Source: a plasmid. Taken from it: 64,000 nucleotides of DNA. Positions 24,101 to 42,183 of the stretch are shown in pieces. The translations under genes were made by a program, and so were the position numbers. The stretch lies in sequence record NZ_CP047975.1; one strand, written 5' to 3'. The notes beneath the pieces are model-generated. The model was given only the letters and a program-made list of their open reading frames with translations. It was not told where the DNA came from and searched no databases. Numbering within the stretch: position 1 is the stretch's first letter; each line of letters starts with the position of its first letter.

Positions 24101-26273
24101 TGCTAAATTCCAGCTGAGAAACTTAGTCAAAACTTATCAAGACTCAACTCAACGCCCAACAGCTTTGGCAGTTGCCCATGACTTACCAATCTTGCAGCAT
24201 ATCCAAAGCCAACAATTACAATTTACTGAATGTGAAAAACTGTTAGCGAGTAAGCTTGGTTCTTATTGGCAGGGTGAAGATAGCGCATGGCAAAGTTTTG
24301 AAGCTATTCACAATCAGTGGCAAGAAATTAAGCAGATAGTTGCGTTGTCAATTACTGATCAAGCAACTTTATTAAAAGCTGTAGAGTTTAGTAAAAATCA
24401 TACTTTGGATGAGCTGACACAGAATATCGCTCAGGTGGAGAATACGTTTAGGCAATTGCTGAATGATCATGTCCTGAAGAGTGATACTGCGATTACCTCA
24501 TATTCAGATATTGATTTTAATAAAATTATCGAAAGACAACAGCAGTTGCAGCAACACAGTTCATCTTGGAGACATTGGTTAAATTGGCAGGCTATAAAGA
24601 GCCAGTTGATTCAACATGGGTTAAAACCATTGGCATTTGAGCTTTTGAATGCCCCATTGAATGTGGATGATGCCCTAAAACGCCTGAATATTAATTTAGC
24701 GAGACACTGGATTACGCATCAATTTAGTCAGCATCCAGAGTTAAACCAATTTAACAGCCAACAACATGAACAGAAAATAATGTCCTTTGCCCAGCAGGAT
24801 AAAGAACACCAACTTTCTGCAAGTCAGGAAATTATTCACCGTTGGAATAATATTTTTATAGAACAAAACCACTACAAAGGGCAATGGACTGTTCTTAACA
24901 AAGAGTTGGGTAAGAAACGCCGTCATATTCCTGTACGAGAGTTGATGCGTCAAATTCCTGATGTTTTAGTTGGCTTGAAACCATGTTTATTAATGAGTCC
25001 ATTATCAGTTGCCCAATATCTGGACACAGAAGCAAAATTTGATGTAGTAATTTTTGATGAAGCATCACAGATTCCTGTATGGGATGCAATTGGTGCATTA
25101 GCGAGAGGTAAACAGTCAATCGTGGTGGGTGACAATAAACAAATGCCACCAACCAGTTTCTTCGGTAAAGGCGATTCTGAAGAAGAGGTTGATGAGGAGG
25201 TGACTGAAGATCTGGAGAGTATTTTGGATGAATGTCTTGCTGCTCAGTTACCAGAATTAGCTTTGAATTGGCATTACCGTAGTCGTTATGAAAGTCTCAT
25301 TCAATTTAGTAATCAGAAATACTACAAAGGTGGTTTATTTACTTTCCCTGCACCTGTTGCTAAGGATACAGCTGTAAAACTACATGTGGTTGAGGGTGTA
25401 TACGACAAAGGTGATACACGTACCAATAGTAATGAAGCAAAGGCAATTGTTGAATTTATTATTCAGCATTTACAGTCACAGTTAGGGCAAGAGAATCCTT
25501 TGACTTTAGGTGTGGTCACTTTCAATATGACTCAGCAGAAGTTGATTGAAGATTTGCTGGATAATGAATTGGCTAATCACCCTGAGTTAGAGACATTGAG
25601 TAAGTCAGGCATTGAACCTTTATTTGTTAAGAATTTAGAAAATGTGCAAGGAGATGAACGTGATATTATCGTTTTCTCAATTACTTACGCAGAAGACCGT
25701 GATGGTCGATTATCTATGAACTTTGGCGCGCTTAATCGTCAAGGTGGTCAGCGCCGTCTAAATGTAGCAATTACTCGCGCTCGTCAAGGATTACATGTTT
25801 TCTCTGCTTTGAGTCCTGAAGAAATTAATTTGGCACGCACTAATAGTGAGGGTGTAAGGGATTTAAAAGACTTCTTAGTTTTTGCTCGTAGTGGTCAGTT
25901 GCATTTAAATTATGCTGACCAAAGTAAACAGCAGGCTAAAAAAGAATTCCTACAGTACCTACAAACTAAGTTGCAAGAACAAGGCTGGAGTGTGGACCTT
26001 GGTATAGGTCAGGGAGATAGTTGTGTAGATATAGCAATTAAGGATAATTTGAATTCAGGTAGTTATCTTGCAGGTATTATAGTAGATGGTGAAAACTACG
26101 CTAAAGCAGCTACAGCAAGAGACCGTGATCAGCTCAGACCAACAGTATTAAATGGGTTAGGCTGGCAGGTATTATCAGTGTGGACAGTTGATTGGTGGCT
26201 GGATCCAGAGCAGAACTTAGCTAAATTGGTAAAAGAATTGGATGAGATCAAAATTAATCAACAGGTTGCTTAA
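21162..26273 (+). CDS. Multidomain protein of 1703 aa, TTG start at 21162. N-terminal transglutaminase-like Cys-peptidase-like region, then a DUF4011-like region, an SF1 (UPF1/DNA2-like) helicase core, a DUF3320-like region, and a C-terminal VSR/DUF559-like PD-(D/E)xK endonuclease domain
   Basis: CCLDTTILLSALAEQIGLD…GHSYLGVW is transglutaminase-like. RLLDLSLRNKLLNF is the DUF4011 hallmark. Walker A LSGPPGTGKSQT. VIFDEASQI is the DEAD-like motif II. VTFNMTQQ, NVQGDERDIIVFS and LNVAITRAR follow. C-terminal GWSVDLGIGQGDSCVDIAI…IIVDGENY…DRDQLRPTVLNGLGWQVL is VSR-like. Confidence 0.85.
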   Translation: MQVDCASALNFVLQQNSVPLIRQILISSTETISGSRIVIRSNPDYFKEHTINIANLEGNQFLALDKPKLVFDIKLLQELPENLKGSIEILWLNEKEEILAEQRAEIDLLTIDTWGGERQPIELLASFSQPNASALSPILVKASEILKAKELGSLSGYQERDRDSVLSQLNALWESLLQQDIHYIVNPASFVKSGQRIRLAKQIFDEKLACCLDTTILLSALAEQIGLDTLLIFEEGHSYLGVWLNETPNVDLIIDDIQALRKRYDLGEVVFIETTLLTQQVKFASALETAKQYIKDESRQHKFYLAIDVRQSRLRGIKPISSYQDKKNHLDETEIEWAPASIPVYDVERPVESKATRVDRWLRRLLDLSLRNKLLNFKDNRYSIPLQCSELTLGKLEDALANQEGFLFKGIDSISLKDVQRDNESQHINQYVDDSLSRKLLFSPLDTPLLEKRLIEVYRASRTALEEGGANTLFLAIGFLEWKESERSKRTFKAPLLLIPVQITRETAKTGYRLYMYDDEPRFNSTLLQLLRQDFELDISGLNPLPADDSGIDVNQVLHIVRKAIVNIPGWEVKAEAAIGQFSFSKYLMWLDLSTRMDQLKNQSVVNHLIESPREPFIKQDDFPQPAQLDQRYQPQQFFTPLSSDSSQLAAVMSAALGRTFVLSGPPGTGKSQTITNMISQCLADGKSVLFVSEKMAALEVVYRRLTQIGLSELCLQLHSSKAQKMQVLDQLRERAQKNNDPYFLSAQLKTTEWQKLSDKLIQSRDELNQHVNNLHTVHAIGWSLYAAMSDELCYRDTPHLRFPEIEISTLTSEKRELLNKTVTQAVSLRQLVNENAKDVLDGFAEGLSEPIWNLAWQEQYQLLQDQLVGQIQQLQKSISAWQQVFGFSEKQNLSQVNQDVAIFKAISNLVQQTDLKLLNAIKDIDLKTITQTKHLTQDLKQQRSSLVGKYQSQIYQADLSQIGFKWREAESKMFPFSWFAKFQLRNLVKTYQDSTQRPTALAVAHDLPILQHIQSQQLQFTECEKLLASKLGSYWQGEDSAWQSFEAIHNQWQEIKQIVALSITDQATLLKAVEFSKNHTLDELTQNIAQVENTFRQLLNDHVLKSDTAITSYSDIDFNKIIERQQQLQQHSSSWRHWLNWQAIKSQLIQHGLKPLAFELLNAPLNVDDALKRLNINLARHWITHQFSQHPELNQFNSQQHEQKIMSFAQQDKEHQLSASQEIIHRWNNIFIEQNHYKGQWTVLNKELGKKRRHIPVRELMRQIPDVLVGLKPCLLMSPLSVAQYLDTEAKFDVVIFDEASQIPVWDAIGALARGKQSIVVGDNKQMPPTSFFGKGDSEEEVDEEVTEDLESILDECLAAQLPELALNWHYRSRYESLIQFSNQKYYKGGLFTFPAPVAKDTAVKLHVVEGVYDKGDTRTNSNEAKAIVEFIIQHLQSQLGQENPLTLGVVTFNMTQQKLIEDLLDNELANHPELETLSKSGIEPLFVKNLENVQGDERDIIVFSITYAEDRDGRLSMNFGALNRQGGQRRLNVAITRARQGLHVFSALSPEEINLARTNSEGVRDLKDFLVFARSGQLHLNYADQSKQQAKKEFLQYLQTKLQEQGWSVDLGIGQGDSCVDIAIKDNLNSGSYLAGIIVDGENYAKAATARDRDQLRPTVLNGLGWQVLSVWTVDWWLDPEQNLAKLVKELDEIKINQQVA

Positions 26274-26446
26274 ATTGTCTGAAACCTTAGGGATGAAAAG
26301 CATGCTTTAAATCAACTCATTGACTTGGGTTGCATGGTCCATGCGAGTCGTAAATTCTATGAACTATATGTGACGGGGAAAAGTCAGATCAATGAACAGG
26401 CATTTTTAAGGGTCATCAGATTAAGTGCATTTTGATAATGAATAAA

Positions 26447-26467
26447 GCGCCGTTTGGCGCTTTATTC
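26447..26467 (+). terminator. Perfect GC hairpin (agcgcc gttt ggcgct) followed by ttattc. A terminator-like structure at the AT-to-GC junction
   Basis: Direct reading. Confidence 0.5.
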
Positions 26468-26680
26468 ATCCTAGGGACCGCTCACCACCGAGTCCGAGAA
26501 GAGCGAGCAAAAAGGCTTTGCCAACCTGCTGATCGGCCTGTTCGGCGCCGTGCGCAATCCGCTGACTCATGCGCCCAAGGCGAATTAGCCCATGTCCGAA
26601 CAGGATTCACTGGACATCCTGACGCTGGTATCGCTGATTCACCGCAAGCTGGATGGCACCACGAAATTAGCGGCCGTATC
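26466..26680 (+). pseudogene. Truncated, frameshifted C-terminal fragment of an Abi_C-domain (abortive-infection C-terminal) protein. It marks the left edge of the GC-rich island
   Basis: Frame translation is ...SEQKGFANLLIGLFGAVRNPLTHAPKAN*, containing the Abi_C-type RNxxxH motif. It continues in another frame as EQDSLDILTLVSLIHRKLDG. No N-terminal part is present. Confidence 0.45.
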
Positions 26681-26700
26681 GCCATAAGGGAAAGACAAGA

Positions 26701-27468
26701 ATGGACGAGGCGATCGTAGTCTTCTCTCGGAAAGGGATTTTCCAGACTACGATTGCCGCGCGTGACGTTCGCAGCCGGGAACATGCACGCAAGCTGTGGC
26801 CCCTGGTGTCTCCCGGCGCATCACGGCAGATGGTGACATGGGTCAGCCCCTCCTTTGAGAGCGGGAAGTTGCGTCGGAGATCCCACTTCCGCGTGCTTCC
26901 TGCCCAACACACCTTTAATCCGAAAGCGCACTTCGACGATGAAGAAGCCAGCCGGTGGCGCGCTGTGCAGGAAAGCCCCGAACACCGACAGGCGAAAGAA
27001 CTTGTCGCTGCCGAACTCTCCCGACGCTTGAATGCCGGGCTTGCGATGCCGTGGGCGTTCAAAGATACGGATGCGTCGGACTATGCGCTGGAAGGCAACT
27101 TGTTGCTGGGTGCCGACCGGGTGGCAACCGAGCATCCTCTGGAGACGCCATTCGGCAGCAAATTCCGGCTCGACGTTGCCGTGCTCGGGCCGCCGGTTCA
27201 GGTCGAGCCGATGGTGCTTGGCGGCGTTGAAATCGAACTCAGCCACGCCTTCGACGGCCGCAAGGCGCTGATCGGGAAGTCGCTCGGATTTCCGTTGATC
27301 TCCATCGACATCACGGAGATGATGCTGGACGAACTCACGCCTGAGTGGGCACAGCGGGTACTGACCACAACCACGCGGAGCCACGAGCAAGGACGCCGGC
27401 AGACCTACATCTATCTCCACGACCTGCTGTACCACCTCTACGCGCAATTGCCAACGATGAGACGCTGA
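26701..27468 (+). CDS. Hypothetical protein (255 aa; true start uncertain) at the left end of the GC-rich island
   Basis: Longest coherent ORF among many overlapping high-GC ORFs. No motif recognised. Confidence 0.4.
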   Translation: MDEAIVVFSRKGIFQTTIAARDVRSREHARKLWPLVSPGASRQMVTWVSPSFESGKLRRRSHFRVLPAQHTFNPKAHFDDEEASRWRAVQESPEHRQAKELVAAELSRRLNAGLAMPWAFKDTDASDYALEGNLLLGADRVATEHPLETPFGSKFRLDVAVLGPPVQVEPMVLGGVEIELSHAFDGRKALIGKSLGFPLISIDITEMMLDELTPEWAQRVLTTTTRSHEQGRRQTYIYLHDLLYHLYAQLPTMRR

Positions 27469-27913
27469 ACAAGCTGGTGCGCTGGATGAACCTGCTCGCG
27501 GAGAAGCTAGAGTACCCGAAGGGTACGGTCGCCGTTGCCTTGGTCAATGGAAAGAACTAACAGTCGCGCAAGATGCTGGAACGCGCGGGACAAGTCGTTG
27601 GCCCCGACTGGAGTGAATTCAATGACCAGCGCTGCTTAGGGCTGACCTTGCCGCGCCCCAAAGGCCCAGCCGATCTCCAAGCCCATCGCTTCCACATGAC
27701 GATGGCGCGCATCCTGCTGTCGCACACTGATGCGCACGTTAGCTACAAATACTGCAACTGCGTGGACAACAACCACCCCGAAGAAGACGTGTGGGTGGCG
27801 CATCGCTGGATTGCCGACCTGAAAACCCATACCCGGCACCGCGTATTGCCGGAGTCACCTTGCGGGCAAACACTACAACGGAGCCAGGCGCCTGTTTGCT
27901 TGTTGGACAGTTC

Positions 27914-28702
27914 TCAGTCCGTCGTCGGTTTTGGTGCTCTTTTCCGCGGAGCCGAAGAAGGCAAAGACGGCAAGCACTCGAATAGGCGTTCTGCATAGAC
28001 GAACCCCATCCGCCTGACTGCGCTCTGATCGAAATACAGTAGCCAAGCGGCCAGTAACGCCAGCGAAATGAGCAGCGTTAGGCCAGCAGCCAGCCCCGGA
28101 TCAGCAAAATGCACAGGGTCAAAATGTGGAGGCGCAACCTGCAAGATTTTTGCAATCAGCAATCCATAAAGGATACCCAAGAGGCACGACAAAATGCCAA
28201 CAGGTTTCATCGCTAACATATTGCGATGGAATCCGTATGCAATATTCTCTTTGAGTAGGAGCTGCTTGTTGGAACGGGTGAGTTCACGAAGTCGCTTGGT
28301 TGCCCCAATGTAGGTATCGTCCGCCTTGTCCTGATCTGCTGATTCCTCCTCTGCGTTCGGCATGGCAATACCCAGCTTAGCTGTAATCGCGGTGTGATAT
28401 CGCTGCTTGCTGACGCTATCCAGAAATTTGTCGCGATGGCGCAGGGCTATGGTTGTTGGCATTCCGCCCCATTTTTTCACTAGGGATTCTTCCAACTTTT
28501 TTCCCCGCCCACGGGCTACGCTTGCGAGTGCATAAATGGCACCGCAGCCACCCAGCAGTCCAATCACGCCTGTAAGTACCGGGTGCTTTGCGCCGTAGAC
28601 ACACAACAAGGGAACGAGCAGCGGCAAAGCTACAAGAAGTCCTGGAATTACGCGCGCCTTGCGCTCGTAGGGGTCTTTGACCAGTTCAAAAATATTCGTC
28701 AT
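27914..28702 (-). CDS. Predicted integral membrane protein (262 aa; two N-terminal and two C-terminal hydrophobic helices) co-oriented downstream of the WYL regulator gene
   Basis: Hydrophobic stretches VIPGLLVALPLLVPLLCVYG, VLTGVIGLLGGCGAIYALA, VGILSCLLGILYGLLIAKIL and LAAGLTLLISLALLAAWLLYF. Confidence 0.6.
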   Translation of the reverse strand: MTNIFELVKDPYERKARVIPGLLVALPLLVPLLCVYGAKHPVLTGVIGLLGGCGAIYALASVARGRGKKLEESLVKKWGGMPTTIALRHRDKFLDSVSKQRYHTAITAKLGIAMPNAEEESADQDKADDTYIGATKRLRELTRSNKQLLLKENIAYGFHRNMLAMKPVGILSCLLGILYGLLIAKILQVAPPHFDPVHFADPGLAAGLTLLISLALLAAWLLYFDQSAVRRMGFVYAERLFECLPSLPSSAPRKRAPKPTTD

Positions 28703-28708
28703 AGGTGC

Positions 28709-29611
28709 TTAGCTTTGGGCCGACAAGGCATCAATATAGGGTTGAATTTCATCGCGGTTTTTCAAAGTGATCTGCTGCGCGAGGGGGTCGGGTGCTTCCT
28801 TGGTATGCAAGCCCAAACGCCTCAGTGTGTAGTACAGAAACGCTTGGCGGCATGGAAGTTTGACCTGTCCACCCTCCATTCCATAGTCCAACTCCAGGAC
28901 TCGTTTCTTGGCAGCGGGTAAATCGGGATGCGGTGCAAGCACCAGCGTCAATACAGTTTGCCAATGCGAATCCTGGCTGGCGTCCACTTGGCTCGCCTCG
29001 AAGCCATCGATGCGCAGGATTCGGGCGAGGACGAAATCGCTGAAGCGCTGGCGCTTATGGCAAAACGCGCGCATGTGCCAGCGAAAACCGTCGTTGCCCA
29101 GAGCGTGCGGCGACAGCAGACGAACCGATTCGTCCAAGGACGTCATGGACTGGTAGCTCACCCAAATGGCTTCCTGCTGCCGAATTGCCCGGACCACTGC
29201 TTCGACGGTTTGTTCATTGATGGTGCGCCAAGGGGACGGTGCCCAATCTGCCTCAGGCGCTGAGCCAATAAAGCTGGACGCTGGTTCGATGACGCCCATC
29301 TTGGTGGCCAGCAGCTCCGCTAGATAGTGTTGCACCGAACTTCGCTGGTAAAGCGGGTGAAAACTCGGTGCTGCCGTGTAAGTCTTGGAACTGCGGTCAT
29401 AAATCAGGTTGTTCGGCGCTAACTCCGTGTACTTGGCAATGTCCAGTGAGGCCTGGGGAATCGATATGCCGAAGTGCTCGGTGAGATCCATTCGATTGAT
29501 GCGCCGCTCCCAGCGCAAACGGAAATCGATGAATTGAAGTCTGCTCTCTAACCCCCAGCTTAGCCCTTTGGGCTCAGCGGGATCGGCGGCAGTTACAGGA
29601 GGCTCTTGCAT
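28709..29611 (-). CDS. WYL-domain transcriptional regulator (N-terminal wHTH plus WYL-like domain)
   Basis: N-terminal RLQFIDFRLRWERRINRMDLTEHFGISIPQASLDI is HTH-like. Central LLSPHALGNDGFRWHMRAFCHKRQRFSDFVLARI is WYL-like. Confidence 0.65.
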   Translation of the reverse strand: MQEPPVTAADPAEPKGLSWGLESRLQFIDFRLRWERRINRMDLTEHFGISIPQASLDIAKYTELAPNNLIYDRSSKTYTAAPSFHPLYQRSSVQHYLAELLATKMGVIEPASSFIGSAPEADWAPSPWRTINEQTVEAVVRAIRQQEAIWVSYQSMTSLDESVRLLSPHALGNDGFRWHMRAFCHKRQRFSDFVLARILRIDGFEASQVDASQDSHWQTVLTLVLAPHPDLPAAKKRVLELDYGMEGGQVKLPCRQAFLYYTLRRLGLHTKEAPDPLAQQITLKNRDEIQPYIDALSAQS

Positions 29612-29700
29612 TATTTGCGCCTAATAAGTAGACGGATATAAAAAATAGTCGTACATTAACTATACGCGATCATCCTTCGGTCGTCTACCCGGAGACCTCA

Positions 29701-30894
29701 ATGCCCACAACCATCACCTTTTTCCCCGTCGACAACGGGGACATGACACTCATCAAGTTCGGCGATCTTGACGCGACGACCCTGCTGATCGACGTAAACA
29801 TCAGACAAGATGCCGATGATCCTGGGAAGGACGTGCGCGATGTCGCCAAGGATCTGCGCGAACGACTGAAAAAAGACGAGAACGGCAGGCCATATGTCGA
29901 TGCCTTTTTGTTGAGCCACCCGGACCAGGATCATTGCCGTGGGCTGACGCGGCATTTCTACCTGGGACCGCTGGACAAGTACCCGGATGACAAGAAGGAC
30001 GACAAGGACAAGAAAATCGTGATCCGGGAGATGTGGTCGTCTCCCATCGTGTTTCGACGCGCAAGCAAGACGCACACTTTGAGCGACGACGCCAAGGTAT
30101 TCAACACGGAGGCGCGTCGGCGGATACAACTGAACCGCGACAAGAACTTCGCCGTCGGAAACGGCGACCGCATCCAGATCATGGGCGAGGACATCGATGG
30201 AAAAACCGATGATCTCACCTCGATTGTGCGGAAGGTGGACACGCGCTTCTCGACGATCAACGGCAAGAGTTCCGCATTCTTCTCTGCGTTTCTTTTGGCC
30301 CCCCTGGATGCCCAGGACGACGAAGAAGAGGAAGAGTGCCTGGTCAAGAACCAGTCCAGCGTGATCCTGAACATCACGTTAGCCGCTGATGCTCAGACGC
30401 CGGATGGCGCAAAGTTCCTTACTGGTGGCGATGCTGAGGTGTTCATCTGGAACCGCCAGTGGCAGCGCCACGAGACCGAAGCCGATGTACTTGAGTACGA
30501 CATCATGCAGGCACCGCATCACTGTTCTTGGCATTCGCTGTCCTATGACAGTTGGTCCGACTACGGCGAGAAGGCCAAACTCGATGCCGATGCCCGCAAG
30601 GCGCTTTCGCAGACCCGTGACGGCGCCGTCATCGTCGCCAGTTGCAAGCCGATTGCAGACGACGACAGTGATCCACCCTGCATCCGCGCAAAGCGTGAGT
30701 ACGTGGCGATCGTAGACGAAGCAAAGGGCGAGTTCTATTGCACGGGCGAGTACCCGAGCGAGAAATCCTTGGAGCCCCTCGTTTTCACCGTCACCGCTCA
30801 GGGAGTGCAGCCGCCCTCGAAGAAGGAGTCCGGATCGAAGGCCGCTGCCGTGATCACCTCCGCGCGCACTCCGATGCCGCACGGGGCATCATGA
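29701..30894 (+). CDS. Metallo-beta-lactamase-fold protein (397 aa) with a variant metal motif H-P-D-x-D-H
   Basis: LLSHPDQDHCRGL and later APHHCSWHS. The stop overlaps the next gene's start (ATGA). Confidence 0.7.
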   Translation: MPTTITFFPVDNGDMTLIKFGDLDATTLLIDVNIRQDADDPGKDVRDVAKDLRERLKKDENGRPYVDAFLLSHPDQDHCRGLTRHFYLGPLDKYPDDKKDDKDKKIVIREMWSSPIVFRRASKTHTLSDDAKVFNTEARRRIQLNRDKNFAVGNGDRIQIMGEDIDGKTDDLTSIVRKVDTRFSTINGKSSAFFSAFLLAPLDAQDDEEEEECLVKNQSSVILNITLAADAQTPDGAKFLTGGDAEVFIWNRQWQRHETEADVLEYDIMQAPHHCSWHSLSYDSWSDYGEKAKLDADARKALSQTRDGAVIVASCKPIADDDSDPPCIRAKREYVAIVDEAKGEFYCTGEYPSEKSLEPLVFTVTAQGVQPPSKKESGSKAAAVITSARTPMPHGAS

Positions 30895-33146
30895 CGGGCG
30901 CCATCGCTGACGCACTACATCAACTTCAGCGGCATCGGGGCCTGATTCGCGTTGGCGAGCCCAAGGCAAGCGGTGCATCGACGCAAATAGAAGTCGATGT
31001 TGCCGTCCAACTGCCAAACAGGTCACGGCGTAACGGCGTCTCCGAAACCGGAGTGCGCGCTGTCGAGACATGCGTGCTGGTATTCGGCAGTGATTGGCCC
31101 CTGTCCGCGCCCAAGCCTTTCTTGCGTGCGGACTTTCCGCTCAATTTGCCGCACATCAACCCCCATCGCGAAGGTGAGCTGGTCTCGCCTTGCCTGTTCG
31201 AGGGGTCCTTGGACGAACTGCTGCATCGGTTTGGTCTAGACGCCATTGTCGATCAGTTGGTCGATTGGCTGCACAAGGCTGCGGCCGGAACATTGCTGGA
31301 CTTGGAACAGGGGTGGGAGCCGACGCGCCGAGACAGTTGTCCTTCGACCATTGTATTCAGTGCCGAAAAGGTTGCGGCCTCCGCACCTGCTGACGGCACG
31401 ATTCTGGTAGTTCCCGCAGGCTACGTGACGATTGATGGCGGGCTATACGCCATCCTCAATGCCGAACTGACCGCACAAATCGATGCAGTGTTCGTCCATG
31501 ATGTTCACAACGACAAATTGGGCAAGTGGGGAAATGGCCATACTGCGGCCTTCATTGCGCGGGCTCCAATGACCGACGGCCACCCGCACATGGTCGGACG
31601 CTACCAACCGGAGACGGTTGTCGATCTCGCGACGCTGCTTGATCTAGCAGCGGAACTTGGCATTGATCGCGACGCGTTGGCCCAAGGCTTGGATGGTTAT
31701 TACGGACGCTCGATCCTGGATATGCAGCAGGACTCGCGCGGCTGGGTGCATGGCTTGTACGCGATTGTAATTCTGACGGTACAACGGCCAGCGTCGCTTG
31801 TGGGTTCACCAGGGAGAAGTGTCGAGGTATTGCCCTACGCGGTGCGCTATGAACTCAACGCTAAAGCGCTCCTGGAGCGAAACGCCACGGTTCACCCAGC
31901 CTTTCACGCGCATGCGTTGTCTCCTGAGTTGCTAGCAAGGACATCCGGCATTCCACCAGCAGCCACATCGCAGCCGCTAGTCATACTCGGCTGCGGAAGT
32001 GTGGGATCGAAAATCGCGATGCAACTGGGGCGAGCAGGTTTCGGCTCAATGACTTTCGTCGACAACGAGTCCATGTCACCTCATAACGCGGCACGGCATG
32101 CACTCATTGAGCGGACATCGGTACTGGTCCCACCTCGGAAGTCGGCGCGGATGAAGACGGCCTTTGAGGAGCTGTCGCATCTTCAATCGCGCGCGTTCGA
32201 CACCGACGCCGTGACCCTTCTGGTCGATCCGGCACAGTTCGCCACAGTCATTCCGCAGGATGCGGCTCTCATCGTGGATGCGACGGCCTCACTTCAGGTG
32301 CTGGCCGCAGAAACACAATCAGCAGTACTGAACCAGTCTCCTGCCCGCCTGGTACGGATCGCGATGTATGGTCAGGGCCGCTGTGTCGCGGTTTTGCTTG
32401 AAGGACCTAGTCGCGCCGGTCGGGTTGACGACCTCACGGCATTCTTGTTCGAGTGCTGTCGGTTTGTGCCGGAACTGCGGGCATCGATTGCTGGGGATAC
32501 GTCGGAGCCGACGCGCATTTTTGTGGGCGACAACTGCCGTTCACTGACGATGCCAATGTCTGATGCCGTTGTTTCGCGTTCTTCGTCACTGGCCGGTCTG
32601 CAACTGGAACGCTGGCTCGTTGGCGGGCTTCCGAAGGAGGCGATGCTTTGCACCGGGATCTCGGATGCCGAAGGCCTCGGCATGGCATGGACCCGCGCCA
32701 GTCTTGGCCCGACCACTGTGCTCGACGTAGCTGATGATGGTGGCTGGAACATTCGGATTCTGCACCCAGTCGTGCAAGCGATCCATGCCGATGCGCTGCA
32801 CTGGGGCGCTCTGGAAACAGGCGGAGCCTTGGTCGGCCGCATCTCGTTTGAAAATCGAACCATCACCATTGCGGGCATCGTGGACGCGCCGCCTGACAGC
32901 ATTCGAGAGGCCGCCTGCTTCGTCCTCGGAACGGATGGACTTGTTCAGAATTTGCGTGCGGCAAATGGAGCCTCTTTAGGGTATCTCACCTTCATCGGAA
33001 CTTGGCACAGCCACCCGAAAGGCGGCCCACACTCGGGCATAGACCGAAACACATTGCGCAACATCGCCGAGGATGCTGGTGGTCTTCCCGCCGTGTCGTT
33101 GGTATGGACTCCGACAGGACCCACATGTGCGGTGGATCGCTGGTAG
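30891..33146 (+). CDS. E2-like + E1-like (ThiF/MoeB Rossmann) + JAB/JAMM deubiquitinase-like triple-fusion protein (751 aa from the ATG at 30891). Ubiquitin-like conjugation machinery of Bil/Bub/Cap2-Cap3 type
   Basis: E2-like HINPHREGELVSPCLFEG, an HPN-like motif plus a catalytic Cys. E1 glycine loop LVILGCGSVGSKIAMQLGRAGFGSMTFVDNESMSPHNAARH. JAMM ETGGALVGRI … GTWHSHPKGGPHSGID. Confidence 0.8.
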   Translation: MTGAIADALHQLQRHRGLIRVGEPKASGASTQIEVDVAVQLPNRSRRNGVSETGVRAVETCVLVFGSDWPLSAPKPFLRADFPLNLPHINPHREGELVSPCLFEGSLDELLHRFGLDAIVDQLVDWLHKAAAGTLLDLEQGWEPTRRDSCPSTIVFSAEKVAASAPADGTILVVPAGYVTIDGGLYAILNAELTAQIDAVFVHDVHNDKLGKWGNGHTAAFIARAPMTDGHPHMVGRYQPETVVDLATLLDLAAELGIDRDALAQGLDGYYGRSILDMQQDSRGWVHGLYAIVILTVQRPASLVGSPGRSVEVLPYAVRYELNAKALLERNATVHPAFHAHALSPELLARTSGIPPAATSQPLVILGCGSVGSKIAMQLGRAGFGSMTFVDNESMSPHNAARHALIERTSVLVPPRKSARMKTAFEELSHLQSRAFDTDAVTLLVDPAQFATVIPQDAALIVDATASLQVLAAETQSAVLNQSPARLVRIAMYGQGRCVAVLLEGPSRAGRVDDLTAFLFECCRFVPELRASIAGDTSEPTRIFVGDNCRSLTMPMSDAVVSRSSSLAGLQLERWLVGGLPKEAMLCTGISDAEGLGMAWTRASLGPTTVLDVADDGGWNIRILHPVVQAIHADALHWGALETGGALVGRISFENRTITIAGIVDAPPDSIREAACFVLGTDGLVQNLRAANGASLGYLTFIGTWHSHPKGGPHSGIDRNTLRNIAEDAGGLPAVSLVWTPTGPTCAVDRW

Positions 33147-33191
33147 GGGTAAAGCCACCAGCACTTTATTGGCATAAAACAAGAGGGATGT

Positions 33192-34262
33192 ATGGCTGAC
33201 TACTTCGAGATCGATTTTCTTGGCGTCGAAACAGCAAAAAGCGGAGATGCGATCACGCTTCGCTATTCTGTGAATGGCACTGAGGGCGTGCACGTCGTTG
33301 ACGGAGGATATCTGGATACGGGAGATCAGATTGTCGAGCACCTGAAGACCTACTACGGAACAACAGTCATCGACCATGTGATTCTCACGCACCCTGATCG
33401 CGATCACGCAAATGGTTTGCGAAAAGTTCTAGAGCAGTGCACGGTCAGAAATCTTTGGATCAACAGGCCGTGGATCTATGCAGATCAGTTGATTGATCGA
33501 TTCGAGACCTATGAATCGGTTGAGGCGCTGAGACGGAAGTTGCGCTCCATCTACGATGCCACGGCAATTCTTGAGGATCTGGCGGTAGAAAAGGGAATTC
33601 CAATCCATGCCCCCCTTCAGGGGCAGAGCATCGGCCCCTTCACTGTGATGGCACCAACCCTGGGGCGCTATTTCGACCTGATTGTGGACTCCACGAAGAC
33701 ACCGGAGGCTGTTGAAGAAAGTGCTTTGGACAGCGCGTTGAGCGGCATATTCCGGGCAATGAAGGCCGCGACCGCCTACATCAAATCCCTGTGGGGCGAG
33801 GAGTATTTTCCGCCTGAGCCTACCAGTCGTGAAAATGAAATGAGTGTGGTCCAGTCGGCTGTCCTGAACGGTCATCGTGTCATGCTTACTGGCGATGCCG
33901 GGCGTGAGGCGCTGCAAGAGGTTATTGACTACGCGCCATTTGCCGGACTCGCGTTGCCAGGCATTCGGTATTTTCAGGTGCCCCACCATGGCGGGCGGCA
34001 CAATGTCTCGACTGAAATTCTGGACCAACTGGTTGGTTCACGGTTGGACAGTATGCCGATCCAGCATACCTGGAATGCCATTTGCAGTTCTGCCAAAGCC
34101 GATGAGGATCACCCGCGGAAGTCCGTAATTCGCGCTGTATTACACCGGGGTGGGCACTGGGCGGCAACCGAAAGCAAGAATCTCCGCATCGGGGCGGGCA
34201 TTACCCGCGATGGTTGGGTATCAATTCCTCAAGCGGAGTACCCCGAAGAACAAGAGAGTTGA
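33192..34262 (+). CDS. Second metallo-beta-lactamase-fold protein (356 aa), a paralog of 29701-30894 with the same H-P-D-x-D-H variant
   Basis: VHVVDGG…ILTHPDRDHANGL…VPHHGGRHN. Confidence 0.7.
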   Translation: MADYFEIDFLGVETAKSGDAITLRYSVNGTEGVHVVDGGYLDTGDQIVEHLKTYYGTTVIDHVILTHPDRDHANGLRKVLEQCTVRNLWINRPWIYADQLIDRFETYESVEALRRKLRSIYDATAILEDLAVEKGIPIHAPLQGQSIGPFTVMAPTLGRYFDLIVDSTKTPEAVEESALDSALSGIFRAMKAATAYIKSLWGEEYFPPEPTSRENEMSVVQSAVLNGHRVMLTGDAGREALQEVIDYAPFAGLALPGIRYFQVPHHGGRHNVSTEILDQLVGSRLDSMPIQHTWNAICSSAKADEDHPRKSVIRAVLHRGGHWAATESKNLRIGAGITRDGWVSIPQAEYPEEQES

Positions 34263-34266
34263 GTCT

Positions 34267-34614
34267 ATGAATGCGATGTCGCTCTCTGAGTTACCAACTT
34301 CAGTGCTCGAACTCCACACATGGCCGTGGTGGCGAAGATATTGGAATCGACCGCCGGAACTGGTTCGGAAGCGGTGTGAAGCTTGGTGTGAACTATTGGA
34401 GCTTAGGGAGGCGGCAGGAAAAGGCGTGCGCCTCAACACCCCAAAATCGAAGATTTTTGATGACTCACGCCGTCGATGGAGCATCCTGGATAAACTCGAC
34501 CGTGGCAACTTTACTTTGCGGAGTCGCTTTCCGGTCTCAGCCTGGGGCGCTAAGGAGGATTTTCCAAAGTCCACATGGATCGCTAGTGCAAGTGACGATG
34601 GCGCCTCACTTTGA
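34267..34614 (+). CDS. Small hypothetical ORF (115 aa) starting 5 bp after the second MBL gene. Coding status uncertain
   Basis: In-operon position. MNAMSLSELPTS…, no motif. Does not end in Gly. Confidence 0.3.
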   Translation: MNAMSLSELPTSVLELHTWPWWRRYWNRPPELVRKRCEAWCELLELREAAGKGVRLNTPKSKIFDDSRRRWSILDKLDRGNFTLRSRFPVSAWGAKEDFPKSTWIASASDDGASL

Positions 34615-35484
34615 ATGCGACGCAAGCGATATAGAGGGCATCTCCTCAAGTAAGTCAGCAGGCATGCCGCACGAAAATGTGGATGTCTTTGGTGCCTACT
34701 ATATTGATGAGCAGAATCGATATGCCAGAAAAGGAAAGCCCTCGCTCTGACTGGATGATGCGAGCTTAAAAGAGCTTTGTTCACATGGCGAAATCCGGCT
34801 AATGCACGGACGTGGCTCCGACACGTTTAGCGTGCGAGCTTGGGATGGCCGTTTTTCCTTGATAACAGTGGCGGATCTCACCATCTTGCGGGCGCCGTGC
34901 ATGTCGCCACGCGCATTGGCGCGAGCATTCACCACGCCTCGAAACTCTATCTCTACCAGCTCAACCATTTGACTGTGCAATGGCTGCTCGATGGATTTCA
35001 TCTGGTATTGCTCCCCAGGTATTTGGATGGACAGATGCTATGGACTGTGAAGAGCTTGGTAGGTTCTGGTTCGAACATGGAGTTCCCACCTGTACTGGGC
35101 GAAGGTTCGCTTTTGGCGTTCCCTCGGGGTTCGCAAATCGCCGAGTGCGTGATGGCAGAACTATTGAGTCAGGGGCACCACGATTTAGGCAATGATTTAA
35201 GGGAGGCACTGGCTGCGTAACAGCAGTTCTTGACTGAATCGACGACTCCATGGACAAAGCAATTTTCATCTCCAATCTGCTGACAAGGATGTCTATGAAT
35301 CACAGATAGTTGGATTTCATGGCACAGTATCTATTCTTAGTAGTAATATTAAAAAATTAACCTTTAGGTTGAATATTTAATCCAATATGTTGAATAAAAG
35401 ATAAAGTTAATATAAGATTGGTTAATACTGTAAAAAGTATTTACTCTTTCAATAATGAATGAGTAACGCAATAGGGTTACGAAA

Positions 35485-35835
35485 ATGTCTAAACTAACAG
35501 ATTTTGGAAAAGCGATTAGGAAACTTAGGATTGATTATGATACCAATCTTAATGAACTAGCGACTTCAATTGGCGTTAGTTCAGCTTTCTTATCAGCTGT
35601 GGAAACAGGAAAAAAGCCAATAAGTGCTGAATTAATTACAAAAATTACAAACGCATTAGGTTTAAGTAAAGCAGAGGAAAATTTGCTTACACATGCTGCT
35701 AGTCAAAGTGTTGATAATGTTACTGTTCGAACAAATAGCCCAGAAGAAGCAGAAATTGCTTTGATGTTTGCTAGACGAATTCAAGACGATACTTTGAATA
35801 TGGCGCAACTTAGAAAAATTCTTGAGGAGAATTGA
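35485..35835 (+). CDS. XRE-family HTH transcriptional regulator
   Basis: 116 aa. LNELATSIGVSSAFLSAVETGKK is HTH. Confidence 0.8.
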   Translation: MSKLTDFGKAIRKLRIDYDTNLNELATSIGVSSAFLSAVETGKKPISAELITKITNALGLSKAEENLLTHAASQSVDNVTVRTNSPEEAEIALMFARRIQDDTLNMAQLRKILEEN

Positions 35836-35838
35836 TAT

Positions 35839-36372
35839 ATGACATCTGGATGTATGCCTAGAGGTGTTAAAGTCGCGCCTTTAAGTAAACAAAGCATAAA
35901 ACAAAAAGCACTCATTATTCGTGACAAGATTTTTAAACTGTCACTAAATCAGTCAATAGATTTAAGTCGAGGCTTAGAACATCGATTGCATGAATTAGGT
36001 GTCATTTTAGAAGTCTGGGAAATTGAGGATATGCCTGATGTTGAGGCTTTAACTAATCCAGATGCTATGACTATTATTCTTCGTGCAGATACTTATGATG
36101 CTTTATGCGATGTATCTGATCCAAAACATTGCCGTGCGCGATTTACTGTAGCACATGAAATAGGGCACTTAATTCTTCATGAGGGTTTTGCCTTAGCACG
36201 TGGTGCAGTCAGGCATAAACATTATGAAGATTCTGAATGGCAAGCTGATACGTTTGCGGCAGAGTTACTGATGCCAACACAAGCATGTATTAATTTGTCT
36301 ATTGAAGACATTCAAGAAAAATTCAAAGTTGGTTATAAAGCGGCTAGAAATAAATTTAGTTCTTTAAAATGA
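35839..36372 (+). CDS. ImmA/IrrE-family zinc metallopeptidase (HEXXH)
   Basis: 177 aa. FTVAHEIGHLILHEG motif. Lies 4 bp after the XRE gene. Confidence 0.8.
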   Translation: MTSGCMPRGVKVAPLSKQSIKQKALIIRDKIFKLSLNQSIDLSRGLEHRLHELGVILEVWEIEDMPDVEALTNPDAMTIILRADTYDALCDVSDPKHCRARFTVAHEIGHLILHEGFALARGAVRHKHYEDSEWQADTFAAELLMPTQACINLSIEDIQEKFKVGYKAARNKFSSLK

Positions 36373-38248: not shown

Positions 38249-39448
38249 ATGAGTCTTACTGAAATTAAAGTTCGCCAAGCTCATTGCAAGGAAAAAACTT
38301 GTTTTTTATCCGATGAAGATGGACTTAGCCTGAAGATTGAGCCGACTGGAAGAAAATCTTGGTGCTATCGCTATACAGATCCACAAACAAAAAAACGTCG
38401 CCGCATTCAGTTGGGGCTTTATCCTGATTTATCGCTGAAAAAGGCACGACAAGTCAAAGATGACTTTAAAGACAATAATTATTGTTTTGAGCATGATACT
38501 GTCTCTAATGTCATCACCTTTCGTAAGGTAGGGGAGGAGTGGCTGCAGTTCAAACTGAAAAATGCATTTAATGATTCACCCCGCTGCGGTGTACTACAGT
38601 TAGCAGAAAGATGTTTACAGCAAGATATTTATCCAGACCTTCAGGATTTACCTTTTCAAAACATCAAGCGTTATGACCTGGTTTCAGTAATCAAAAAAAT
38701 AGAGGGACGCCAAGTAAAAGAACCTGTCAAGAAAGCTTGTAGTTATTTGAACCAAATTTATGACTACGCTGTAGCGATGGGTTATTGTGAATTCAACATC
38801 GCGCATGGTTTAAATAAAATCGCCATTAACAGTAAAATCAAGAAGAATTATCCGTATTTGAAAGCGGAGGATATATCAGATTTTAAGAAAAATTTATTAA
38901 AATTGGATGCCCATCCGATTATTAAAAAAGCACTGCTGTTCAAATTACATACTGGCGTGCGAGGGGCTGAATTGTTATTGGCTGAGCCTCATCATTTTGA
39001 TTTAAATGAAAAAATCTGGAAAATACCTGCCTTGCATATTAAACAGTTTCGACGAAAAGTCATATTAGGCCATGAGATTCCCGACTTCTTAGTTCCACTT
39101 TCAGATCAGGCTTTAGATATTTTAAAAGACGTCATGCAATGGTCATACGGTGAAAAGTACATTTTTGCTAGCCCACGGAAACATAATCAACCGATTCATT
39201 TTAATACATTAAATATGGCTATACGTAAGATGGGCTATGGAAAACATCAATTATCCTCTCATGGACTACGTTCCACTTTTAGTACCATTTTGAATGACTC
39301 AGGTTTGTTCCAGGATAACTGGATTGAGGCACAACTTTCACATATTGATAAGAACCGTACCCGTGCCAGCTATAATCACGCTGACTATTTAGCCCAGCGG
39401 ACTGAAATGATGCAGTGGTGGGGTGATTATTTAAGTACTGCTAAGTGA
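38249..39448 (+). CDS. int: Tyrosine-type site-specific integrase (P4-like; Arm-type N-terminal domain)
   Basis: 399 aa. N-terminal GRKSWCYRYTDPQTKKRRRIQLG. C-terminal HGLRSTFSTILNDSG…RASYNHADY, giving the R, the H-x-x-R and the catalytic Y. Confidence 0.85.
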   Translation: MSLTEIKVRQAHCKEKTCFLSDEDGLSLKIEPTGRKSWCYRYTDPQTKKRRRIQLGLYPDLSLKKARQVKDDFKDNNYCFEHDTVSNVITFRKVGEEWLQFKLKNAFNDSPRCGVLQLAERCLQQDIYPDLQDLPFQNIKRYDLVSVIKKIEGRQVKEPVKKACSYLNQIYDYAVAMGYCEFNIAHGLNKIAINSKIKKNYPYLKAEDISDFKKNLLKLDAHPIIKKALLFKLHTGVRGAELLLAEPHHFDLNEKIWKIPALHIKQFRRKVILGHEIPDFLVPLSDQALDILKDVMQWSYGEKYIFASPRKHNQPIHFNTLNMAIRKMGYGKHQLSSHGLRSTFSTILNDSGLFQDNWIEAQLSHIDKNRTRASYNHADYLAQRTEMMQWWGDYLSTAK

Positions 39449-42093: not shown

Positions 42094-42183
42094 AACAAGT
42101 GGGACCACCTCTATATCTCGATAGGTATAGTAGAGTGATATCTCGATAGGTATAGTGTTTTGCAGTTTAGAGGAGATATCGCG

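What the first reader, a model, noticed from the sequence alone, without database searches (positions are those of the whole stretch)
26466..35290. GC-rich island with an E2-E1-JAB triple-fusion (ubiquitin-like conjugation) operon flanked by two paralogous metallo-beta-lactamase-fold proteins, a WYL regulator and a membrane protein
A segment of about 8.8 kb with much higher GC than its Acinetobacter-like surroundings carries an operon on the plus strand. First is MBL-fold protein 1 (29701-30894). Its stop overlaps, in ATGA fashion, the start of a 751-aa protein. That protein has an N-terminal E2-like domain (HINPH…SPCLFEG), a central E1/ThiF Rossmann domain (GCGSVGSKIAMQLGRAGFGSMTFVDNE) and a C-terminal JAMM/JAB domain (E…HSHPKGGPHSGID). 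MBL-fold protein 2 (33192-34262) and a 115-aa ORF follow.

Divergently on the minus strand are a WYL-domain regulator and a 4-TM membrane protein. WYL regulators commonly control defence operons, and such membrane proteins are commonly effectors.

The E2/E1/JAB trio is the enzymatic core of the Bil, Bub and CBASS Cap2/Cap3 antiviral ubiquitin-like conjugation systems. Here all three activities are in a single polypeptide, paired with two MBL-fold proteins that share an unusual H-P-D-x-D-H metal motif. No standalone ubiquitin-like protein is evident in the ORF set. The ubiquitin-like substrate may be a small unlisted ORF, a domain of another protein, or encoded elsewhere.

The island's left edge coincides with a truncated Abi_C gene fragment, so the segment landed in a pre-existing defence locus.
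Basis: partly seen in the sequence, partly recalled or inferred. Interest (0 to 1): 0.82.

Follow-up and report, generated by a model that had tools for sequence, protein, structure and literature searches.

The report
Known 6A-MBL anti-phage system on plasmid
The GC-rich island on this Acinetobacter resistance plasmid carries an already named anti-phage system, 6A-MBL, in which a fused E2-E1-JAB enzyme most likely attaches a nuclease-like partner protein to targets by its own glycine tail, so no separate ubiquitin-like protein is needed.

Summary
An 8.8-kb island (26470-35284, GC 0.57 against 0.38 on the left flank) carries an MBL-fold gene whose stop overlaps (ATGA) the start of a 751-aa E2-E1-JAB fusion.

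It is not new. Both proteins pass the curated NCBIfam equivalog cut-offs for the "anti-phage 6A-MBL system" (443 bits against 220; 553 against 320). This is operon type 6a of Iyer, Burroughs and Aravind (2006). Later papers cite van den Berg et al. (2024) for its anti-phage activity.

The "missing" ubiquitin-like protein is probably MBL1 itself. Its disordered C-terminal tail ends in a conserved P-x-P-H-G, followed by zero to two variable residues (AS here). This mirrors the C-terminal Gly/Ala of CD-NTases in type II CBASS.

The "Abi_C" fragment belongs to the imported DNA, not to the host.

One point may go beyond the two-gene description. A 4-TM protein accompanies ComEC-like MBL proteins almost everywhere, with or without the E2-E1-JAB enzyme. 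MBL2 plus this 4-TM protein also occurs as a stand-alone module. I could not check this against the primary paper.

Interest is low to moderate.

The parts
26470..26687 (+). 3' remnant of a Hypoth_Ymh / PD-Lambda-3_B-like gene (pseudogene, in-frame TAG at 26586-26588). It marks the left edge of the imported block.
   Evidence: Pfam PF09509 1.5e-18, profile positions 63-119 of 119. The full-length 272-aa homologue in L015 matches PADLOC PD-Lambda-3_B at 3e-180. DNA homology with relatives starts at 26470.
26701..27854 (+). Decayed gene of unknown function. The 255-aa ORF (26701-27468) is the N-terminal part of a 427-aa protein.
   Evidence: 94-95% identity and 99% coverage to 427-aa ORFs in L015, L017 and L019. 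A 46-nt deletion lies at 27448 relative to L019. No Pfam or PADLOC family.
27914..28702 (-). 4-TM (2+2) membrane protein, 262 aa, with a conserved roughly 90-residue central loop (WGGxPT, ENxxYGFxRN). It is a consistent partner of ComEC-like MBL proteins.
   Evidence: Hydrophobic segments found in close homologues. Conserved columns. Found next to MBL1 and the fusion, or next to MBL2-like proteins. 2273 cluster representatives in the large library. No Pfam or PADLOC model.
28709..29611 (-). WYL transcription regulator of the BrxR/CapW type, 300 aa.
   Evidence: Pfam WYL 5.7e-12. Precomputed WHD_BrxR, WYL and BrxR_CTD. PADLOC WYL 3e-15. Present in 33 of 44 distinct loci.
29612..29700 (.). Divergent intergenic region, the presumed promoter/operator. 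It holds a GTAGACG ... CGTCTAC inverted repeat.
   Evidence: Sequence read directly. One promoter-like match on the minus strand, 29687-29659. Function is inferred.
29701..30894 (+). MBL1, the 6A-MBL enzyme: a ComEC-like MBL-fold hydrolase of 397 aa. Metal motifs HPDQDH (73), GGD (242) and HHC (273).
30820..30891 (+). Disordered C-terminal tail of MBL1 (residues 374-397) ending ...PMPHG-AS. Gly395 (30883-30885) is the proposed conjugation site; Ala-Ser is the proposed propeptide.
   Evidence: pLDDT below 50 for residues 374-397. P391, H394 and G395 are invariant. 117 of 120 cluster representatives have HG in the last 8 residues; 40 end exactly at G and most others add 1-2 variable residues.
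30891..33146 (+). E2-E1-JAB triple fusion (Cap2_3), 751 aa. Its start overlaps the MBL1 stop (ATGA).
   Evidence: NCBIfam NF058523 9e-166, 553.2 bits against a cut-off of 320. Invariant C101, GCGSxGSK 367-374, D391, R402, C549, E642, H706, H708, S715, D718.
30903..31385 (+). E2-like domain (residues 5-165), HINPH motif and Cys101.
   Evidence: Pfam Prok-E2_A 2.8e-57. C101 invariant.
31977..32309 (+). Core of the E1/ThiF adenylation domain (residues 363-473). The candidate E1 catalytic Cys549 lies further on, at 32535-32537.
   Evidence: Pfam ThiF 4.6e-12. PDB sequence matches to MccB, Cap2 7to3, MoeB and ATG7. C549 invariant; its role is inferred.
32766..33092 (+). JAB/JAMM metallopeptidase domain (residues 626-734): E642, HSHP 706-709, S715, D718.
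   Evidence: Pfam Prok-JAB 8.1e-11. PADLOC JAB 1.5e-15. NCBIfam Cap3 0.0012.
33192..34262 (+). MBL2, a second ComEC-like MBL (356 aa, PADLOC PDC-M48B). It ends in YPEEQES with no glycine tail.
   Evidence: PDLC04676 7e-153 over its full length. Pfam Lactamase_B 7e-6. C-termini. Stand-alone pairs with the 4-TM protein in L090 and L091.
34267..35284 (+). DUF6685-family pseudogene. It marks the right edge of the imported block.
   Evidence: Pfam DUF6685 hits in two frames. The intact 352-aa homologue L019:11523-12581 scores 1.3e-67. Relative to L019 there is a +1 at 34559 and a -1 at 34855, and a stop at 34748-34750.

Best explanation
What it is. The island is an 8.8-kb fragment of a defence island from integrative elements of beta- and gammaproteobacteria, now fixed on Acinetobacter resistance plasmids. 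Its working core is the known 6A-MBL anti-phage system.

Shown here:
- MBL1 and the E2-E1-JAB fusion are members of that system.
- All catalytic motifs are intact.
- MBL1 is a ComEC-type MBL fold with a disordered tail. The tail ends in a conserved His-Gly, followed by zero to two variable residues.
- The five central genes are intact and under purifying selection, while the genes at both edges have decayed.

Inferred mechanism, by analogy with type II CBASS (Cap2/Cap3 acting on the CD-NTase):
1. The BrxR/CapW-type WYL protein controls the divergent promoters.
2. The JAB domain trims Ala-Ser from MBL1 and exposes Gly395.
3. The E1 domain adenylates Gly395 and takes it as a thioester, probably on Cys549.
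4. The tail passes to the E2 Cys101 and then to a lysine on a still unknown target.
5. Conjugation switches on or positions MBL1.
6. The JAB domain can reverse the conjugation.

By fold and by its relatives in other defence systems (HamM, Avs1a), MBL1 is most likely a latent DNase.

The 4-TM protein is proposed as a third working part, either a membrane anchor or an effector. MBL2 is a second ComEC-like hydrolase without a glycine tail. Elsewhere it forms a stand-alone module with the same 4-TM family, so here it probably acts as a conjugation-independent arm or as a neighbouring system.
For: Identity:
- NCBIfam equivalogs score 442.7 bits (cut-off 220) and 553.2 bits (cut-off 320).
- Operon type 6a is described as a triple-module E2-E1-JAB protein plus a specialised MBL.
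- 6A-MBL is cited as an experimentally confirmed anti-phage component and as a jumbo-phage defence.
- One paper states that the MBL pathways, like type II CBASS, use a fused E2-E1 to conjugate their enzyme to unknown targets.

Linkage: MBL1 lies immediately upstream of the fusion wherever upstream sequence is held, from 32 to 95% identity.

Catalytic residues are invariant.

Glycine tail:
- P391, H394 and G395 are invariant.
- 117 of 120 representatives have HG in the last 8 residues and 40 end at G.
- Even a 34%-identity operon has an MBL ending ...PRRAG.
- The tail is disordered.
- In CBASS a conserved C-terminal Gly/Ala is seen only in operons with Cap2 and Cap3, and it is required for the thioester and for conjugation.

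Nuclease reading:
- PADLOC and NCBIfam similarity to LmuA, RTasMBL and Avs1a.
- Related defence MBLs are gated DNA nucleases.

Selection: dN/dS is 0.055-0.12 for the five genes, while three flanking genes are broken.

4-TM linkage.
Against: - No experiment was done here, and I could not read the primary 6A-MBL paper. I therefore do not know which genes were tested or what was already shown.
- Conjugation of MBL1, trimming by JAB, the role of Cys549 and DNase activity are all inferred.
- The 4-TM protein has no recognisable domain, and its single-sequence model is unusable (pLDDT 52.5).
- Five of 44 distinct loci show no 4-TM candidate within the flanks examined.
- MBL2 is absent from all loci below about 83% identity. 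It is therefore not needed by the core system.
Confidence: 0.75

Rival explanations
1. Two independent systems lie interleaved. One is a WYL/4-TM/MBL2 module (PADLOC candidate PDC-M48-like). The self-sufficient two-gene 6A-MBL pair (MBL1 plus the fusion) has been inserted into it. On this view the 4-TM protein serves MBL2 only.
For: In Klebsiella michiganensis (L090), WYL and 4-TM lie divergent from an MBL2 homologue with nothing in between. That is the window's layout minus MBL1 and the fusion. In Xanthomonas (L091) the order is HTH, MBL2, 4-TM. L166, L169 and L171 show MBL2 next to 4-TM without the fusion. NCBIfam names only two 6A-MBL components, and Iyer et al. describe the operon as usually having two genes.
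Against: WYL and 4-TM accompany MBL1 and the fusion without any MBL2 in many loci, including L046-L056, L062, L064 and L070. 4-TM homologues sit directly after the fusion in distant loci L083, L088 and L089. They also form a tight three-gene operon at 34% identity (L175-L177).
Confidence: 0.3
2. This is a signalling system rather than a nuclease system. MBL1 is a phosphodiesterase that makes or destroys a small molecule, and the 4-TM protein is the membrane-disrupting effector, as in CBASS systems with transmembrane effectors.
For: One paper groups the MBL with the "signaling enzymes" of CBASS and Pycsar. The second-best fold match is a phosphodiesterase. A distant 4-TM homologue lies next to a Pfam S_4TM (SMODS-associated 4TM effector) protein.
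Against: The best fold match is the ComEC nuclease domain. The sequence relatives in defence systems (HamM, Avs1a) are DNases. No nucleotide cyclase or sensor domain lies in the conserved neighbourhood.
Confidence: 0.15
3. This is a Bil- or Bub-type pathway with a separate ubiquitin-like protein that was missed, either as a small ORF or encoded elsewhere.
For: The E2, E1 and JAB domains are shared with those systems.
Against: No conserved small ORF accompanies the pair in 77 loci. Only shadow ORFs recur. Gene spacing in the operon is -4 nt and 45 nt. MBL1 itself carries the glycine tail. The MBL1 model shows no beta-grasp match.
Confidence: 0.03
4. This is a housekeeping sulfur-carrier or cofactor pathway of the ThiF/MoeB type.
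For: Weak ThiF and MoeB matches to the Rossmann core.
Against: Those scores are far below the family cut-offs, for example 35 bits against 275. There are no ThiS/MoaD or biosynthetic neighbours. The genes lie on plasmids and integrative elements among defence genes. GC content is foreign to the host.
Confidence: 0.01

Closest known systems
6A-MBL anti-phage system (operon type 6a of Iyer, Burroughs and Aravind 2006; anti-phage activity attributed by later papers to van den Berg et al. 2024)
   Same: An MBL-fold gene lies directly upstream of an E2-E1-JAB triple fusion. Both proteins pass the NCBIfam equivalog cut-offs. The description matches.
   Different: Nothing differs in the core. The window's copy also carries a WYL regulator, a 4-TM protein and a second MBL. 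I could not check whether these are part of the published description.
Type II CBASS (CD-NTase with Cap2 E1-E2 and Cap3 JAB)
   Same: The E2-E1 enzyme and the JAB peptidase are homologous (PADLOC E1-E2 1.2e-18 and JAB 1.5e-15; PDB Cap2 7to3). The partner enzyme has a conserved C-terminal glycine in place of a ubiquitin-like protein. A WYL (CapW-like) regulator is present.
   Different: No CD-NTase and no cyclic-nucleotide effector are present. The conjugated enzyme is an MBL hydrolase. Cap2 and Cap3 are fused into one chain.
Bil and Bub ubiquitin-like conjugation systems
   Same: They use E1, E2 and JAB-type chemistry in phage defence.
   Different: Those systems have a separate ubiquitin-like protein and separate enzymes. 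None is present here.
Gated ComEC-like MBL nucleases of Hachiman (HamM), AVAST type 1 (Avs1a), Lamassu and DRT, activated by a partner protease
   Same: They belong to the same MBL clade (PADLOC LmuA 1.2e-12 for MBL1 and 5e-19 for MBL2, RTasMBL, Avs1a). They are described as proenzyme DNases switched on by a partner enzyme.
   Different: The partner here is an E2-E1-JAB conjugation enzyme, not a trypsin-like or caspase-like protease. Activation by cleavage has not been shown for this system.
PADLOC candidate system PDC-M48
   Same: MBL2 matches PDC-M48B over its full length (7e-153).
   Different: No protein here matches a PDC-M48A model. Nothing is written about this candidate in the papers searched.
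BrxR/CapW family of WYL defence regulators
   Same: The domain set is WHD_BrxR, WYL and BrxR_CTD. The gene is placed divergently, next to the operon it would control.
   Different: The operator and the inducing signal were not tested.

Membership tests
6A-MBL anti-phage system | MBL-fold protein of the 6A-MBL_enzyme family | tested here: met
6A-MBL anti-phage system | [quoted passage not shown] | tested here: met
   NF058523 9e-166, 553.2 bits against a cut-off of 320. Pfam Prok-E2_A at 5-165, ThiF at 363-473 and Prok-JAB at 626-734.
6A-MBL anti-phage system | The two genes are adjacent in one operon | tested here: met
   ATGA overlap at 30891-30894. Same order wherever upstream sequence is held among 77 loci.
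6A-MBL anti-phage system | Intact catalytic residues (E2 Cys, adenylation motif, JAMM motif, MBL metal ligands) | tested here: met
   Invariant C101, GCGSxGSK, D391, R402, C549, E642, H706, H708, S715, D718. HPDQDH, GGD and HHC in MBL1.
6A-MBL anti-phage system | Protection against phage | not testable with these tools
   Reported for Pseudomonas aeruginosa. The primary paper is not held.
Type II CBASS | CD-NTase (cGAS/DncV-like nucleotidyltransferase) gene in the operon | tested here: not met
   No CD-NTase match for any island protein in Pfam, PADLOC or NCBIfam.
Type II CBASS | Cap2-like E1-E2 and Cap3-like JAB | tested here: met
   PADLOC E1-E2 1.2e-18 and JAB 1.5e-15. NCBIfam Cap3 is only 0.0012, 19 bits against a cut-off of 200. 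These are homologues, not members.
Bil / Bub systems | Separate ubiquitin-like (beta-grasp) protein gene | tested here: not met
   No conserved small gene in 77 loci. The candidate ORFs are pseudogene fragments.
PADLOC PDC-M48 | B component (MBL) | tested here: met
   PDLC04676 7e-153, residues 1-355 on profile positions 1-356.
PADLOC PDC-M48 | A component | tested here: inconclusive
   No island protein, and no 4-TM or neighbouring protein from L090 or L091, matches a PDC-M48A model. I could not inspect what the A model is.
BrxR/CapW WYL regulators | Winged-helix, WYL and BrxR C-terminal domains | tested here: met
   Precomputed PF26109, PF13280 and PF26107 on the identical protein. Pfam WYL 5.7e-12.
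ThiF/MoeB sulfur-carrier adenylyltransferases | Score above the family cut-off and a ThiS/MoaD partner | tested here: not met
   35.2 bits against 275 for ThiF and 25.6 against 377 for MoeB. No such partner in any locus.

The most novel reading that the evidence does not exclude
A ComEC-like MBL plus a 2+2-TM membrane protein may form a broad two-gene defence family, here often with a WYL or HTH regulator. 6A-MBL would then be its "type II" form. In that form the MBL has gained a glycine tail and an E2-E1-JAB enzyme that conjugates it, parallel to CBASS type I versus type II. The window would carry both forms, MBL1 with a tail and MBL2 without, sharing one 4-TM partner. This would make the membrane protein, absent from the two-gene naming, a core component of 6A-MBL.
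Probability: 0.35. Interest if true: 0.55.

Novelty: already known. Interest (0 to 1): 0.3.

Why it matters
The core finding adds no new kind of system. It shows that a named but mechanistically unsolved anti-phage system sits intact on widespread, mobilizable Acinetobacter plasmids of the OXA-58 type, next to resistance genes. In those public records its genes are still labelled "hypothetical protein" or "ThiF family adenylyltransferase".

Three points are useful for those who study the system:
- The conserved P-x-P-H-G tail with a short, variable propeptide gives a direct handle for testing conjugation.
- A near-constant 4-TM partner should be included in reconstitutions.
- Stand-alone MBL plus 4-TM modules could serve as a simpler model of the same effector.

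Tried and rejected
- Reading van den Berg et al. 2024: the paper is not held and no preprint was found. The published gene content and phenotype are known to me only through citing papers.
- Literature on PDC-M48: none found.
- The 4-TM protein gave no significant match in Pfam, PADLOC or NCBIfam. Homologues from L090 and L091 gave none in PADLOC.
- The single-sequence AlphaFold2 model of the 4-TM protein was unusable (pLDDT 52.5), so no fold search was run on it.
It worked with a closer 7-sequence alignment, but this biased the loci towards close relatives.
- Target-site duplications or terminal repeats at the island ends: only short, chance-level repeats were found. How the fragment entered the plasmid remains unknown.
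- An "empty site" in related plasmids: plasmids without the island share only 26300-26474 and then diverge into HigBA and IS elements, so no clean empty site was found.
- A beta-grasp fold in MBL1: none seen.
- The idea that the second MBL is also a conjugation substrate was rejected for MBL2, which ends in an acidic tail without glycine. It is left open for one subclade of the alternative second MBL, which ends in Arg-Gly.

Full report
**1. The observation**

The window has a sharp compositional island. GC is 0.51-0.61 between about 26500 and 35000, against 0.31-0.42 around it. It is 0.567 for 26470-35284 and 0.38 for the 10 kb to the left.

The stop of the 397-aa gene overlaps the ATG of the 751-aa gene (ATGA at 30891-30894). 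The quoted motifs are at the stated places.

Profile searches support every domain call:
- Prok-E2_A 2.8e-57, ThiF 4.6e-12 and Prok-JAB 8.1e-11 for the fusion.
- WYL 5.7e-12 for the regulator.
- Lactamase_B 7e-6 for MBL2.
- Four hydrophobic segments in a 2+2 arrangement for the 262-aa protein.

**2. What it is**

NCBIfam has curated equivalog models for exactly this pair.
- The 397-aa protein scores 442.7 bits on "anti-phage 6A-MBL system MBL-fold protein" (cut-off 220).
- The 751-aa protein scores 553.2 bits on "anti-phage 6A-MBL system cap2_3 protein" (cut-off 320).

The name goes back to row 6a of Table 1 in Iyer, Burroughs and Aravind (2006). [quoted passage not shown]

Later papers add the following:
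- A review credits van den Berg et al. (2024) with predicting and experimentally confirming anti-phage activity for a set of Pseudomonas aeruginosa components that includes 6A-MBL.
- A preprint lists 6A-MBL among known jumbo-phage defences.

I could not read the primary paper. No structure of either protein is in the PDB by sequence search.

**3. Where the island comes from**

The same 9.1 kb is 100% identical in at least 11 Acinetobacter plasmids from several species. One is the mobilizable plasmid pOXA58_005078. The exact fusion protein is indexed in 863 blocks of the assembly collection.

Relatives at 88-95% protein identity lie in Burkholderia, Pseudomonas, Bordetella, Stenotrophomonas and many other beta- and gammaproteobacteria. 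There they sit close to a tyrosine integrase beside guaA, among integrative-element genes.

DNA comparison shows that window 26470-35284 is collinear, at about 89-92% identity, with a longer block in L015, L019, L051 and L059. That block reads:
- a full-length Hypoth_Ymh gene (272 aa, PADLOC PD-Lambda-3_B 3e-180),
- a 427-aa gene,
- the 4-TM gene and the WYL gene,
- MBL1, the fusion and MBL2,
- a 352-aa DUF6685 gene.

In the window the two ends of this block have decayed:
- Only the last 218 nt of the Ymh gene remain, with an in-frame TAG.
- A 46-nt deletion cuts the 427-aa gene to 255 aa.
- The DUF6685 gene has a +1 and a -1 frameshift and a stop codon.

The five central genes are full length. 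Against L019 their dN/dS is 0.055-0.12.

The 26701-27468 and 34267-34614 products are pseudogene pieces, not candidate ubiquitin-like proteins. The "Abi_C" fragment travelled with the island rather than marking a host locus. The host gene to the left is nonetheless a defence-type helicase (PADLOC PDC-S37, 1145 bits).

**4. The missing ubiquitin-like protein**

In 77 genome loci found with the fusion as query, MBL1 is immediately upstream of it wherever upstream sequence is held, from 95% down to 32% identity. No small gene recurs.

The C-terminus of MBL1 is the telling feature.
- P391, H394 and G395 are invariant in a 35-sequence alignment.
- 117 of 120 cluster representatives have His-Gly within the last eight residues.
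- 40 of them end exactly at the glycine. Most others add one or two variable residues such as AS, TR, AA or SS.
- A homologue from a 34%-identity operon ends ...PRRAG.

The AlphaFold2 model (pLDDT 82.6, pTM 0.87) leaves residues 374-397 disordered.

This is the pattern reported for CD-NTases in type II CBASS. There the C-terminal Gly/Ala is conserved only in operons with Cap2 and Cap3, and it is required for the Cap2 thioester and for conjugation to lysines.

I therefore read MBL1 as the conjugated protein, with Ala-Ser as a propeptide removed by the JAB domain. The conservation is shown. The chemistry is inferred.

The residues needed for that chemistry are invariant in the fusion: C101 in the E2 domain, the GCGSxGSK adenylation loop, D391, R402, C549, and the JAMM set E642, H706, H708, S715, D718.

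**5. What MBL1 does**

Both MBL1 and MBL2 match the PADLOC models for the MBL proteins of Lamassu, DRT and AVAST type 1. They also match NCBIfam Avs1a.

A 2025 Science paper compares one such defence MBL (HamM) with the ComEC MBL nuclease domain. It reports that this nuclease family, in Hachiman and AVAST, is a "gated" proenzyme that becomes an indiscriminate DNase after cleavage by a partner protease.

A latent DNase is thus the most likely role, here controlled by conjugation instead of proteolysis. A low-confidence acidic loop (DAQDDEEEEE, about residues 202-212) could be such a gate. That is speculation.

**6. The other genes**

Among 44 distinct loci with at least 3 kb on both sides:
- 33 have the WYL gene.
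- 32 have a homologue of the 4-TM protein.
- 7 more have an unrelated-looking protein of the same size and 2+2-TM layout next to the pair.
- 22 have a second ComEC-like MBL, either MBL2 or a different 285-300-aa family placed right after the fusion.

In distant loci (33-35% identity) the 4-TM homologue follows the fusion directly.

Sampling from the 4-TM side gives the same picture.
- In 80 metagenome loci, nearly every locus with enough flank has MBL1 and the fusion, or an MBL2-like or other ComEC-like MBL, beside the 4-TM gene.
- A 34%-identity member lies in a tight MBL, fusion, 4-TM operon.
- Another member lies next to a 274-aa ComEC-like MBL.

MBL2 homologues occur with the 4-TM protein and without the fusion. 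In Klebsiella the WYL and 4-TM genes are divergent from MBL2. In Xanthomonas the order is HTH, MBL2, 4-TM.

MBL2 ends in an acidic tail without glycine. It is absent from all fusion loci below about 83% identity.

The 4-TM family is large (2273 cluster representatives) and has no Pfam or PADLOC model.

My reading is that the 4-TM protein works with ComEC-like MBLs in general. The E2-E1-JAB enzyme is an added control layer for MBLs that carry the glycine tail.

The alternative is that the window holds two interleaved but independent systems. It cannot be excluded, and I give it 0.3.

**7. Verdict**

The system, however, is a named, published one, and the exact sequence is common in public plasmid records. 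Its novelty class is "already known".

What remains open in the field also remains open here: the conjugation target, the substrate of the MBL and the role of the membrane protein.

Three things here may be useful beyond annotation:
- the explicit glycine-tail evidence,
- the 4-TM linkage,
- the stand-alone MBL plus 4-TM modules.

I could not check them against the primary paper, so I score interest at 0.3. I give the more novel three-part "type I / type II" reading a probability of 0.35.

Noticed in passing
window 21162-26273 (+): A 1703-aa protein in host-like GC, directly left of the island. It has DUF4011, a superfamily-1 helicase and an MTES_1575 nuclease domain. It matches PADLOC PDC-S37 (1145 bits) and Hhe (4e-163), so it is a separate single-gene defence candidate.
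   Followed up: partly
window 35485-36372 (+): An HTH (116 aa) plus M78 peptidase (177 aa) pair directly right of the island, in low-GC DNA. It resembles the CapH/CapP regulators of CBASS (PADLOC 5e-9 and 2e-17). Small ORFs and a tyrosine integrase at 38249-39448 follow. Whether it regulates anything in the island was not tested.
   Followed up: no
L015:2831-3649 and L015:3663-4946 (window remnants 26470-27854): In the donor block, a full-length PD-Lambda-3_B-like gene is followed by a conserved 427-aa gene with no family match. This may be an uncharacterised two-gene defence pair. In the window both are pseudogenes.
   Followed up: partly
L019:11523-12581 (window remnant 34267-35284): An intact 352-aa DUF6685 protein follows MBL2 in six or so relatives (L015, L019, L043, L049, L051, L059). 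Its function is unknown and it has no PADLOC match.
   Followed up: partly
L046:10323-11180, and L047, L050, L054, L062, L064, L078: A different ComEC-like MBL family (285-300 aa) occupies the MBL2 position right after the fusion in the 56-76% identity clade. In one subclade it ends in Arg-Gly, which raises the question of a second conjugation substrate.
   Followed up: partly
L147, L148, L150, L151, L152: The 4-TM protein is about 80% identical to the window's, but MBL1 and the E2-E1-JAB fusion are highly divergent (Pfam domains still present). This points to module exchange between the 4-TM/WYL pair and the MBL/fusion pair.
   Followed up: partly
L174:3-599: A distant 4-TM homologue (P0392, 36% identity) lies next to a protein with the Pfam S_4TM (SMODS-associated 4TM effector) domain, on a 1.7-kb contig.
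   Followed up: no
window 26300-26474, and L092: This 175-bp stretch ends in a perfect 14-bp hairpin (26438-26469). It recurs at 94-95% identity in other Acinetobacter plasmids that lack the island, where HigBA and IS elements follow it. It may be a recombination hot spot or an element boundary.
   Followed up: partly
window 42160-43044, 19847-21064, 9176-10441, 16146-19340: Other plasmid cargo: aac(3)-IId aminoglycoside acetyltransferase, an IS256-family transposase, a HipA toxin kinase and an unusually long (1064-aa) tyrosine recombinase.
   Followed up: no
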